Shown here: positions 1,364 to 4,569 of the stretch, piece after piece
Layout of the letters: each line of letters opens with the position of its first letter
Position numbering within the stretch: the stretch's first letter is position 1
Source of the DNA: TPA_inf: Saccharomyces
Lineage: Eukaryota
DNA length: 64,000 nucleotides
Assembly: GCA_000146045.2 (NCBI GenBank)
Contig: BK006936.2
Span: 480,001 to 544,000, forward strand
Direction: 5' to 3'
Position numbers and translations under genes: made by a program
The notes under the pieces: model-generated
What the model was told of the DNA's origin: nothing
Seen by the model: only the letters and a program-made list of their open reading frames with translations
The model's database searches: none

Positions 1364-3367
1364 TTAGTCAGTTTCAGCTTCAGCTTCAGCTTGGGCAATA
1401 AAAGGAGTCAAATCCTTGGTACCTTCTTCCCAAGAAGCACCATTGTAAGTGATATCGCGGATAGCCTTGATGACATTTTCGACGGAACCTCTAACTTGCT
1501 TGGTGGAATCTCTTTCTCTCAAAGTGACAGAATGGTCTTTGGCAGATTCAAAGTCAATGGTGACACCGAATGGAGTACCTAATTCGTCATTACGGGCATA
1601 TCTTTTACCAATGGAAACTCCAGAATCATCAATCTTAAATGGGATTTGAGACTTTCTTAAGATTTTGGCGACTTCAGTAGTAACAGGAACTAAATCTTTG
1701 TGGTTAGATAAAGGAACTAAAAGAACCTTTGTTGGAGCAACCAAAGGTGGGAAGGAAAGAACACTTCTGGCATTGTCTTCTGGTCTGTTCCAGAAAGAGT
1801 GCTCAAAAACGGAGTAGATGATACGGCCAATACCGAAAGATGGTTCAATGACACTAGGAACATATTCTCTAACGTGTTCAACCTTTGTTCTTTGTTCGAT
1901 TTTAACCAATTTATCGTCCAACTCGACTTCGCCATCAACACCATCAACCTTTATAGTAAACTTGCCATTTGCCTTCAATAACTCAGCCTTGGAAGCCAAG
2001 TCATCTTGAGACATATTCAATAGATGAGATTCAACTTTTGGTGCATCTTTTCTGAATTTTGGACCGAACAATTTTTTCGTCAAATCAATTTCCCACTTGG
2101 TGACTTCAATTGGATTATCTAATTTTTGTCTAACAACCAATTTTTCTTTGGTCTTTTTGGAATGAACGGTCAAATCATAGGCAGATCTATCAGCACATCC
2201 GACACATTCAATCCACCCGTAAGATGTCTTCAATTCACCATCCCAACAGTCAGCAGCATAATGTGCCATTTCATTAGCCATATGTTGACGGAATCTCAAT
2301 TTGGACTCATCAACACCAATTTTCATCAAAAATTGGTAAATTCTGGCAATAAAGTAACCCAAAGTTTCATTATCGACCATTCTTGAAGCAACTGCTTCAC
2401 CAACTGTCTTGACAATTGGTTCAGTAGAACCAGCTTCTTGAACATCACGAGGCAAAAAGGAAAGCTTGATGTCTTTGATTTCATTAAATTTTGGATGAGA
2501 TTTGTCCAATGGGTCAACGAAATGTTCAATCTCTGCCATCAAAAATTCACGGACTCTTAATAAACCGGCCCTTGGGGAAATCTCATTTCTAAATGATTTA
2601 CCGATAGAGGCTGAGGCAAAAGGGGTCTTACTGTTGTTAAATTCTAACAACTTGTTAAAATTCAAGAATTGACCTTGGGCAGTTTCTGGCCTCAAGTAAC
2701 CCTTTAATTGACCAGATGGGCCAATAGCCGTTTCAAACATCAGGTTAAAAGCCCTTGGAGATTCTAAAGTTTCTCCGGTGACTGGGTTACCGATATCGTA
2801 TTTTTCCATCAATTCACCTAATTCTGGGCCGGAATAACCATCTATTTTAGCCAAAATTTCTTCATATTCTTTGACAACGTCGTCATCCAATTTGACTGCT
2901 TTAATTTGTTTAACTTTTTTCTTTCTCTTCTTCTTTTCGGCATCGTCCTTAGCAGCGGCATTAGCATCCTCGACTAAACCTCTGGCTTCTTGGTCACCCT
3001 TTAAGCGAGCTTCCAAAACTTCTTCGACTAAATGGTCAGCTCTGAAAATCTCACCAGTCTTCAAATCTCTACACATCCAATCAGAAAATTTGTCAACATG
3101 ACCTGAGGTCTTCAAAACCTCATATGGAGTTAACATAGTACAATCAACTTCCAACATATCTTCTTCCAAAATAAAATGCTTTCTCCAGGCGTCAATGATG
3201 TTGTTTTGGAATGCACAACCTGGTGGACCATAGTCATATAAACCAGAAACCCCACCGTACAAGTCAAAAGCTGGGGCATAAAAAAATCTTCCTCTCAAAA
3301 CACTTTCTAGCTGTTCTCTGTTAAATGGAACAGCGGCTCTAGCCTTCTTGATATCTTCTACACTCAT
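1364..3367 (-). CDS. GRS1: Glycyl-tRNA synthetase, cytoplasmic form of 667 aa from AUG1; the mitochondrial form extends 23 codons upstream to a UUG at 3434-3436
   Basis: The protein is a class II aaRS (MSVEDIKKARAAVPFNREQLESVLRGRFFYAPAFDLYGG...). The 721-aa track ORF begins at a TTG. The first ATG is codon 55 of that ORF, which gives 667 aa. An in-frame TTG sits at codon -23 in an AAA context. Confidence 0.95.
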   Translation of the reverse strand: MSVEDIKKARAAVPFNREQLESVLRGRFFYAPAFDLYGGVSGLYDYGPPGCAFQNNIIDAWRKHFILEEDMLEVDCTMLTPYEVLKTSGHVDKFSDWMCRDLKTGEIFRADHLVEEVLEARLKGDQEARGLVEDANAAAKDDAEKKKRKKKVKQIKAVKLDDDVVKEYEEILAKIDGYSGPELGELMEKYDIGNPVTGETLESPRAFNLMFETAIGPSGQLKGYLRPETAQGQFLNFNKLLEFNNSKTPFASASIGKSFRNEISPRAGLLRVREFLMAEIEHFVDPLDKSHPKFNEIKDIKLSFLPRDVQEAGSTEPIVKTVGEAVASRMVDNETLGYFIARIYQFLMKIGVDESKLRFRQHMANEMAHYAADCWDGELKTSYGWIECVGCADRSAYDLTVHSKKTKEKLVVRQKLDNPIEVTKWEIDLTKKLFGPKFRKDAPKVESHLLNMSQDDLASKAELLKANGKFTIKVDGVDGEVELDDKLVKIEQRTKVEHVREYVPSVIEPSFGIGRIIYSVFEHSFWNRPEDNARSVLSFPPLVAPTKVLLVPLSNHKDLVPVTTEVAKILRKSQIPFKIDDSGVSIGKRYARNDELGTPFGVTIDFESAKDHSVTLRERDSTKQVRGSVENVIKAIRDITYNGASWEEGTKDLTPFIAQAEAEAETD

Positions 3368-3969
3368 TCTTTTAATCTTAACCGATTTTTTAACAATCTG
3401 AGAGTAAAATCGTCTACTGATATTGAAGAACGACAATTTTTCTTGAAAATCAACACGAATGCAAAAAGGGAAACTAAAATAAAAGAAATCCTCAAAAGTA
3501 ATTGAACAGATTTCGAGTCCTAATTGCAAGTAAAATTATGTATACAAAGTACGTGATAAGTATCGCAGCAGTGATTCAACACTCGAGAAGAGTAAAAATT
3601 TTCAATTTTTTTCCACTGCGCTGAAATATTACGAGGCGTAGAAAATGATCACTACAATGCCGTTGCTGCTTATTGCAGCGTAAGTGAGCTTCATTCACAG
3701 ACCATTTGCCTCGATAATCCATGAATCATATCTGGTTCATATTATGTTTGTAAATGTGTGTCTTGTTGCACTTAATCTATCGCGATAGCGCCAAACCAAG
3801 CGTTCGCAGAATCTTCGTTGTCAATATATACATATGTAGACGTATGTGTATATGTTGCGGTATATACAAGGCTGTTTATGTAGTCTTCAAACAGATGCGA
3901 TTGAGATCTATGTCCCAAAAGGAATATAAATTGGTTCGAGAATAGAAAAGTAAGGGGAGCAAACACTAT

Positions 3970-4569
<600 letters not shown>

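What the first reader, a model, noticed from the sequence alone, without database searches (positions are those of the whole stretch)
3367..3436. In-frame UUG 23 codons upstream of the GRS1 AUG: the start of the mitochondrial GlyRS isoform
Counting codons back from the first ATG of GRS1 (3365-3367, minus strand), the reading frame stays open. Codon -23 is TTG, at 3434-3436 on the minus strand, with AAA at -3 to -1. Non-AUG starts in yeast favour an A at -3. The 23 extra residues, roughly LSFFNISRRFYSQIVKKSVKIKR, are basic and hydroxylated with no acidic residues, which is how a mitochondrial presequence looks. It is established that the single GRS1 gene yields both the cytosolic and the mitochondrial GlyRS through alternative initiation at an upstream UUG. 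The sequence here fits that mechanism exactly. It is the clearest non-canonical coding feature in the window, although it is not new.
Basis: partly seen in the sequence, partly recalled or inferred. Interest (0 to 1): 0.5.

Follow-up and report, generated by a model that had tools for sequence, protein, structure and literature searches.

The report
Known UUG start of mitochondrial GlyRS

Summary
On the minus strand the ATG is at 3367-3365 and an in-frame TTG is at 3436-3434, exactly 23 codons upstream. There is no stop between them, and the context is gAAAAA-TTG-T. The ATG-started product (667 aa) is identical to S. cerevisiae S288C GlyRS NP_009679.2. The M-started 690-aa product is identical to UniProt P38088 "Glycine--tRNA ligase 1, mitochondrial".

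The extension has 7 K/R and no D/E. It is the only extension of this kind among 27 long ORFs in the window.

In 12 orthologous yeast loci, codon-periodic conservation (3rd position most variable) begins at about codon -23 and falls to random upstream of it. A TTG or GTG with A at -3 sits at -23/-24 in 10 of the 11 orthologous loci outside the CTG clade. No ATG in any frame lies upstream of AUG1 for at least 97 nt in any locus, and for at least 158 nt in all but Y. tenuis.

Held papers report TTG(-23) mutagenesis with loss of growth on glycerol, reporter fusions, 80S and 40S ribosome profiling peaks, and an earlier cross-species comparison. Novelty is nil and interest is low.

The parts
3434..3436 (-). 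UUG (TTG) initiator at codon -23, the start of the mitochondrial GlyRS precursor
   Evidence: The sequence is. TTG(-23) mutagenesis is reported in PMC2909995 and a 40S peak in PMC8137927. A TTG or GTG is conserved at -23/-24 in orthologues.
3437..3441 (-). A-rich context (AAAAA at -5 to -1) in front of the UUG; +4 is T (3433)
   Evidence: PMC7075259 describes A at -4 to -1 and U at +4. PMC2909995 gives AAR-uug as the best context. A at -3 is present in all 12 candidate non-AUG starts (window plus 11 loci).
3368..3436 (-). 23-codon N-terminal extension, M(L)SFFNISRRFYSQIVKKSVKIKR, acting as the mitochondrial presequence
   Evidence: 7 K/R, 0 D/E. Codon-periodic conservation in 7 species. PMC3990555 states 'MTS of ScGlyRS1: aa 1-23'.
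3365..3367 (-). AUG1, the start of the cytosolic GlyRS isoform, in context aaaagaATGa (A at -3)
   Evidence: The 667-aa product is identical to NP_009679.2.
1364..3367 (-). GRS1 (YBR121C) coding sequence shared by both isoforms, stop codon included
   Evidence: Pfam HGTP_anticodon plus tRNA-synt_2b. TIGR00389 glyS_dimeric at 918 bits, covering residues 39-662 of the 690-aa form.
3374..3421 (-). Three minor in-frame near-cognate codons inside the extension: ATC -18 (3419-3421), ATT -10 (3395-3397), ATT -3 (3374-3376)
   Evidence: PMC7075259 reports three in-frame NCCs downstream of the UUG, the last being AUU. Removing them lowered reporter expression only slightly.
3437..3691 (-). ATG-free upstream region (leader plus promoter); the nearest ATG in any frame is at 3694-3692, 327 nt before AUG1
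   Evidence: The same ATG-free stretch is seen in all 12 orthologous loci: at least 158 nt in 11 of them and 97 nt in Y. tenuis.
3536..3538 (-). In-frame TAA that closes the frame upstream (codon -57)

Best explanation
One GRS1 mRNA is read from two in-frame start codons by leaky scanning. A minority of scanning 43S complexes initiate with Met-tRNAi at the UUG at codon -23, helped by A's at -4 to -1 and U at +4. This gives a 690-aa precursor whose 23-residue basic, acid-free N-terminus directs import into mitochondria, where it is the only GlyRS.

Most complexes pass the UUG. They meet no other AUG and initiate at AUG1, which has A at -3, to give the 667-aa cytosolic enzyme.

Shown here:
- the anatomy;
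- the identity of the gene;
- the composition of the extension;
- the ATG-free leader;
- coding-type conservation that starts at about codon -23.

Shown in the literature:
- use of the UUG;
- its requirement for respiratory growth;
- ribosome and 40S occupancy.

Inferred only: cleavage by MPP/Icp55 at the conserved R-R-F-Y|S motif (R at -3), which would leave SQIVKKSVKIKR on the mature mitochondrial enzyme.
For: - **Sequence and frame:**
- **Identity:** exact matches to NP_009679.2 and P38088.3; TIGR00389 at 918 bits.
- **Start codon in orthologues:** 10 of 11 non-CTG-clade orthologous loci have TTG or GTG at -23/-24 with A at -3. L. dasiensis has a GTG at -28 with A at -3. None has an in-frame ATG in the open frame upstream of AUG1.
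- **Conservation by codon position (entropy at positions 1/2/3):** 0.47/0.49/0.99 in the extension, 0.40/0.21/0.90 in the first 23 CDS codons, and 1.38/1.43/1.30 in the 69 nt upstream of the start. Nucleotide identity there is about 0.3, which is random.
- **S. cerevisiae against S. paradoxus:** the extension is 99% identical and the 69 nt upstream of it 72%.
- **Composition:** all 11 extensions scored have 0 acidic and 5-8 basic residues.
- **Uniqueness:** this is the only such extension among 27 long ORFs in the window.
- **ATG-free leader:** no ATG in any frame for 327 nt upstream of AUG1.
- **Literature:** PMC2909995, PMC7075259, PMC8137927, PMC6582344, PMC7358010, PMC3990555, PMC3306390.
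Against: - Nothing contradicts the model.
- The helical hydrophobic moment of the extension (0.55-0.67) is not significantly above shuffles of the same residues (fraction at least as high 0.12-0.35). My own evidence for MTS character therefore rests on composition and conservation, not on demonstrated amphipathicity.
- No dedicated predictor (MitoFates, TargetP) was available.
- The primary paper (Chang & Wang 2004, J Biol Chem) is not in the held library, so I cite it only through papers that cite it.
- The transcription start site was not examined directly.
Confidence: 0.96

Rival explanations
1. The mitochondrial isoform starts further upstream, at one of the other in-frame near-cognate codons in the 56-codon open frame (TTG -54, ATC -48, ATT -45, ATT -31). 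The UUG at -23 would then be internal.
For: The frame is open to codon -56 and contains these codons. Prokaryote-style gene callers do extend the protein that far, for example P0003 at 717 aa. PMC7075259 notes extra ribosome footprints upstream of the UUG in an eIF1 mutant.
Against: - None of the four codons has A at -3; they have t, g, t and t.
- The stretch from -54 to -24 has 5 acidic and only 2 basic residues.
- Conservation upstream of -23 is at random level with no codon periodicity.
- The upstream stop lies at -31/-30 in four species, so that part cannot be coding there.
- Removing the UUG and the three downstream NCCs essentially abolished GRS1-FLUC expression from a reporter carrying 728 bp of native upstream sequence (PMC7075259).
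Confidence: 0.01
2. The mitochondrial form is started mainly at the downstream near-cognate codons ATC -18, ATT -10 or ATT -3, not at the UUG.
For: ATC -18 has A at -3 and would still give an 18-residue basic peptide. PMC7075259 found residual, eIF1-sensitive reporter expression after the UUG was removed.
Against: - Removing the three downstream NCCs lowered expression only slightly, whereas removing the UUG reduced it (PMC7075259).
- TTG(-23)->TTA fails to support growth on glycerol (PMC2909995).
- These codons are not conserved as near-cognates. Position -18 is ATC, ATA or absent, and position -10 is missing in V. polyspora.
Confidence: 0.02
3. The open frame and the TTG are a chance feature of an AT-rich leader, or act only as a regulatory upstream start that dampens AUG1 use, with no functional protein extension.
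For: About 15% of long ORFs in the window have at least 23 open codons upstream by chance. Amphipathicity is not statistically distinguishable from shuffles.
Against: - Substitutions in the extension show codon periodicity and many are synonymous across 7 species.
- All 11 extensions scored lack acidic residues.
- The start codon and its A at -3 are conserved.
- Genetic complementation data exist (PMC2909995).
Confidence: 0.01

Closest known systems
S. cerevisiae GRS1 (YBR121C) UUG(-23) alternative initiation (Chang & Wang 2004, as cited in PMC2909995, PMC7075259 and PMC3306390)
   Same: It is the same locus. The protein sequences are identical, the codon position is the same (-23), and the context is the same (A at -4 to -1, U at +4).
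   Different: Nothing differs. This window carries the reference allele.
S. cerevisiae ALA1 ACG(-25)/ACG(-24) initiation of mitochondrial AlaRS
   Same: One aaRS gene makes a mitochondrial isoform from an upstream in-frame near-cognate codon and a cytosolic isoform from AUG1. The extension is an MTS (PMC2909995; PMC7075259).
   Different: ALA1 uses two tandem ACG codons in a weaker context. GRS1 uses a single UUG in near-optimal context.
AUG/AUG dual-start aaRS genes (HTS1, VAS1) and GRS1 homologues of more distant yeasts
   Same: Two in-frame starts give an MTS-bearing form and an MTS-less form. NCBI-annotated GlyRS of Brettanomyces naardenensis, Saccharomycopsis crataegensis and Wickerhamomyces pijperi (P0111, P0101, P0106) carry long basic N-terminal extensions ahead of the conserved internal Met.
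   Different: In those cases the upstream start is annotated as AUG. For HTS1 and VAS1, from my own knowledge, separate transcripts rather than leaky scanning provide the choice.

Membership tests
S. cerevisiae GRS1 / YBR121C | Protein sequence identical to the reference gene product | tested here: met
   The 667-aa product equals NP_009679.2 (S288C). The 690-aa product equals UniProt P38088.3. The flanking genes are MRPL36 (bL31m) and CBP6, as in the S. paradoxus locus.
Alpha2-type class II glycyl-tRNA synthetase | Match above the curated cut-off to the dimeric GlyRS equivalog model, with the class II core and the HGTP anticodon-binding domain | tested here: met
   TIGR00389 scores 918 bits against a cut-off of 243.3, over residues 39-662. 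PF03129 and PF00587 are both above their gathering scores.
Non-AUG-initiated N-terminal extension giving dual localisation (GRS1/ALA1 type) | In-frame near-cognate codon upstream of the annotated AUG with no intervening stop | tested here: met
   TTG at 3436-3434, with 23 open codons to the ATG at 3367-3365.
Non-AUG-initiated N-terminal extension giving dual localisation (GRS1/ALA1 type) | Favourable initiation context (A at -3; AAR before the codon) | tested here: met
   AAAAA-TTG-T. A at -3 in all 12 candidate non-AUG starts (window plus 11 loci). The preference itself is from PMC2909995.
Non-AUG-initiated N-terminal extension giving dual localisation (GRS1/ALA1 type) | No AUG in any frame between the upstream start and AUG1, or in the leader, so that leaky scanning can reach AUG1 | tested here: met
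   The nearest upstream ATG is 327 nt before AUG1. The 12 orthologous loci are ATG-free for at least 97 nt, and 11 of them for at least 158 nt.
Non-AUG-initiated N-terminal extension giving dual localisation (GRS1/ALA1 type) | The extension evolves as coding sequence | tested here: met
   Entropy by codon position is 0.47/0.49/0.99 in the extension and 1.38/1.43/1.30 upstream. Many codon differences are synonymous.
Non-AUG-initiated N-terminal extension giving dual localisation (GRS1/ALA1 type) | The extension has the properties of a mitochondrial presequence (basic, no acidic residues, amphipathic helix) | tested here: inconclusive
   The composition criterion is met: 7 K/R and 0 D/E, and 0 acidic residues in all 11 extensions scored. 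Amphipathicity is not above shuffles (fraction 0.12-0.35). No dedicated predictor was available. A published MTS screen recovered Grs1 (PMC6582344).
Non-AUG-initiated N-terminal extension giving dual localisation (GRS1/ALA1 type) | Ribosomes initiate at the near-cognate codon in vivo, and the isoform is needed for mitochondrial function | not testable with these tools
   This is published. TTG(-23) mutants were tested on YPG, with lexA and lacZ fusions (PMC2909995). 80S profiling and a FLUC reporter are in PMC7075259. 40S peaks are in PMC8137927.

The most novel reading that the evidence does not exclude
The C-terminal half of the extension may do more than target. The stretch (K/R)RFY(S/A)Q-x-x-KKSVKI is nearly invariant in seven Saccharomycetaceae despite synonymous changes.

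If MPP/Icp55 cleaves at R-R-F-Y|S, the lysine-rich tail SQIVKKSVKIKR would stay on the mature mitochondrial enzyme. There it could help bind mitochondrial tRNA-Gly.

My evidence neither supports nor excludes this. The presequence of the neighbouring MRPL36 is conserved to a similar degree, so the conservation is not exceptional.
Probability: 0.1. Interest if true: 0.3.

Novelty: already known. Interest (0 to 1): 0.1.

Why it matters
GRS1 is one of the classic natural examples of non-AUG initiation in yeast, and of one gene supplying an aminoacyl-tRNA synthetase to both cytosol and mitochondria. The finding shows that the first-stage reader can recognise a real non-canonical coding feature from raw sequence, but it adds nothing to the biology. 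The mechanism, the context dependence, the ribosome occupancy and even the cross-species conservation of the alternative initiator (PMC3306390) are all published. The one small addition here is a codon-periodicity test showing that coding-type conservation begins at about codon -23 in seven species.

Tried and rejected
- **RNA structure.** I tested whether a hairpin downstream of the UUG might pause the scanning complex. Folding 3340-3456 (-) gave -16.1 kcal/mol with a z-score of +0.49, and 140 of 200 shuffles folded at least as well. RNAalifold on 7 orthologues predicted no pairs at all. Rejected.
- **Amphipathicity.** I tested whether the hydrophobic moment could serve as independent evidence of MTS character. 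It was not significant against composition-matched shuffles, so I do not use it as evidence.
- **Exceptional conservation.** I asked whether the extension is more conserved than an ordinary presequence. The MRPL36 presequence in the same loci is conserved to a similar degree, so I dropped the idea.
- **Start at TTG -54 or other upstream near-cognate codons.** Rejected on context, composition, conservation and reporter data.
- **Primary paper.** Chang & Wang 2004 (doi 10.1074/jbc.M311269200) is not held in the library.
- **Whole-window scans.** The tRNA scan and the Rfam scan found nothing.

Full report
**Observation**

On the minus strand the window reads ...ttcaagaaaaa TTG TCG TTC TTC AAT ATC AGT AGA CGA TTT TAC TCT CAG ATT GTT AAA AAA TCG GTT AAG ATT AAA AGA ATG AGT GTA.... 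The ATG is at 3367-3365 and the TTG at 3436-3434, 69 nt or 23 codons apart, in frame and with no stop. The five bases before the TTG are all A, and +4 is T.

Two refinements apply:
- The frame is open for 56 codons, back to a TAA at 3538-3536. It contains further in-frame near-cognate codons both upstream (TTG -54, ATC -48, ATT -45, ATT -31) and downstream (ATC -18, ATT -10, ATT -3) of the TTG.
- The first residue of the real product is Met, not Leu. The 690-aa sequence beginning with M is an exact match to UniProt P38088.3.

**Identity**

The ATG-started 667-aa product is identical to NP_009679.2, glycine--tRNA ligase of S. cerevisiae S288C. The 690-aa form is identical to P38088.3, "Glycine--tRNA ligase 1, mitochondrial". 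Pfam finds the HGTP anticodon-binding domain and the class II core. NCBIfam TIGR00389 (dimeric GlyRS) scores 918 bits over residues 39-662, so the 23-residue extension lies outside the conserved enzyme. The neighbours are a bL31m gene (MRPL36) upstream and a CBP6-family gene downstream, the same order as in S. paradoxus.

**Is it more than chance?**

An open frame of 23 codons upstream of an ATG is not unusual in this AT-rich genome. 4 of 27 ATG-ORFs of at least 150 aa in the window have one, and the median open length is 13 codons. The combination is unusual: a near-cognate codon with A at -3, an extension of 15-60 residues, net charge of at least +4 and no acidic residue. It occurs only at this gene.

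The extension has 7 K/R, 0 D/E, 4 Ser and 10 bulky hydrophobic residues. The open frame further upstream (-54 to -24) has 5 acidic and 2 basic residues. The helical hydrophobic moment is 0.55-0.67, which is not significantly higher than in shuffles of the same residues (fraction at least as high 0.12-0.35). My own evidence for presequence character is therefore compositional.

**Comparative test**

I fetched the orthologous locus from:
- S. paradoxus, Naumovozyma castellii, Nakaseomyces bracarensis, Vanderwaltozyma polyspora and Zygosaccharomyces rouxii;
- Lachancea dasiensis and Eremothecium cymbalariae;
- Wickerhamomyces anomalus and Yamadazyma tenuis;
- three unnamed yeasts from Logan/ENA assemblies.

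None of the 12 loci has an in-frame ATG in the open frame upstream of AUG1. Ten of the 11 loci outside the CTG clade have a TTG or GTG at codon -23 or -24 with A at -3, usually as AAG/AAA-TTG-TGG. The GTG cases are N. castellii and L009. In L. dasiensis the aligned TTG (-22) has a poor context, and I picked a GTG at -28 with AAG in front of it. That choice was made on context, so it is not independent evidence.

All 11 extensions scored (S. cerevisiae, nine of those ten loci and L. dasiensis; S. paradoxus is identical to S. cerevisiae) have 0 acidic and 5-8 basic residues and share the core (K/R)RFY(S/A)Q..KKSVKIK.

For the seven species with a gap-free 23-codon extension, column entropy by codon position was:

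| Region | Position 1 | Position 2 | Position 3 |
|---|---|---|---|
| Extension (-69 to -1) | 0.47 | 0.49 | 0.99 |
| First 23 CDS codons | 0.40 | 0.21 | 0.90 |
| 69 nt upstream of the start (-138 to -70) | 1.38 | 1.43 | 1.30 |

Pairwise identity in the upstream 69 nt is about 0.3, which is random. Between S. cerevisiae and S. paradoxus the extension is 99% identical and the upstream 69 nt 72%. Coding-type selection therefore begins at about codon -23. This independently places the start there and argues against a start further upstream. In four species the frame is closed at -31/-30.

**Leaky scanning**

No ATG in any frame occurs for 327 nt upstream of AUG1 in the window. The same holds for at least 158 nt in 11 orthologous loci and for 97 nt in Y. 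tenuis. AUG1 has A at -3 in S. cerevisiae (aaaagaATGa). Neither single-sequence folding (z = +0.49) nor a consensus fold of seven orthologues (no pairs) gives any sign of an RNA structure that would aid UUG recognition. Sequence context appears to be the only cis determinant.

**Literature**

- **PMC2909995.** The native UUG initiator of GRS1 is TTG(-23). [quoted passage not shown] In GRS1-lacZ fusions TTG gave 0.28 of the activity of ATG and TTA gave none. AAR-uug is the most favourable context.
- **PMC7075259.** Ribosome footprints cover the extension, and the context is A at -4 to -1 and U at +4. In a GRS1-FLUC reporter with 728 bp of native upstream sequence, the UUG is the major start of the extension. 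Three downstream in-frame near-cognates contribute little. Removing all four essentially abolishes expression.
- **PMC8137927.** 40S profiling shows two major peaks, at the UUG and at the AUG.
- **PMC6582344.** An MTS-prediction screen of non-AUG extensions recovered Grs1.
- **PMC7358010 and PMC3990555.** These list the mitochondrial form as "GRS1 -23" and the MTS as residues 1-23.
- **PMC3306390.** This paper already compared 14 yeast species. It found an alternative initiator (AUG or non-AUG) in every GRS1 homologue, with A at -3 in all non-AUG candidates, so my comparative result largely repeats published work.
- **Chang & Wang 2004.** The primary paper is not in the held library.

**Mechanism**

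A single mRNA is scanned from the 5' end. A minority of preinitiation complexes accept the UUG in its strong context and make the 690-aa precursor, which is imported into mitochondria through its basic N-terminus. The remainder continue through an AUG-free stretch to AUG1 and make the 667-aa cytosolic enzyme.

The anatomy, the conservation and the gene identity are shown here. Initiation at the UUG and its functional requirement are shown in the cited papers. The processing site is my inference only. The most conserved motif, R-R-F-Y|S, fits the R-3 pattern for MPP followed by Icp55; that pattern is recalled from my own knowledge and was not tested here.

**Verdict**

The feature is the textbook GRS1 UUG(-23) start. 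Novelty is "already known" and interest is low.

Noticed in passing
window 3970-4560 (-): In the MRPL36 (bL31m) ORF the first in-frame ATG gives 196 aa. Four of the five orthologues start at the ATG 19 codons downstream ([12 protein letters not shown]...), and S. paradoxus is annotated at 177 aa. The extra 19 codons, [19 protein letters not shown], are not conserved. The real start is probably the downstream ATG.
   Followed up: partly
window 3590-3620 (-): The GRS1 promoter region contains gcgcagtggaaaaaaattgaaaattttt. This resembles the AAAAATTTT-type (RRPE) element of ribosome-biogenesis and translation genes. The resemblance is recalled from memory and was not tested.
   Followed up: no
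L012 (Yamadazyma tenuis) about 1308-1500: In this CTG-clade yeast the frame upstream of the GlyRS AUG is open for 64 codons and is basic. It has tandem in-frame ACG ACG at -22/-21, reminiscent of ALA1, and an ATT at -18 with A at -3. There is no upstream in-frame ATG. The start of the mitochondrial form there is unclear.
   Followed up: partly
L003 (N. castellii) 1432-1434; L009 1501-1503: At the position of the S. cerevisiae UUG these two loci carry GTG instead (gtaaaaGTGtgg and tccaccGTGtgg). This fits the published finding that GTG works well in the GRS1 context (PMC2909995).
   Followed up: partly
proteins P0003 (717 aa), P0021 (719 aa), P0042 (740 aa): Gene calls in Logan assemblies (P0003 is also held in ENA) extend GlyRS well upstream of the aligned -23 start. 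In the S. cerevisiae cluster the 717-aa length fits a start at TTG -54. The extra N-terminal residues are not conserved and are probably artefacts.
   Followed up: partly
window 1-64000: The whole 64-kb window has no tRNA gene (ARAGORN) and no Rfam family at gathering threshold.
   Followed up: yes
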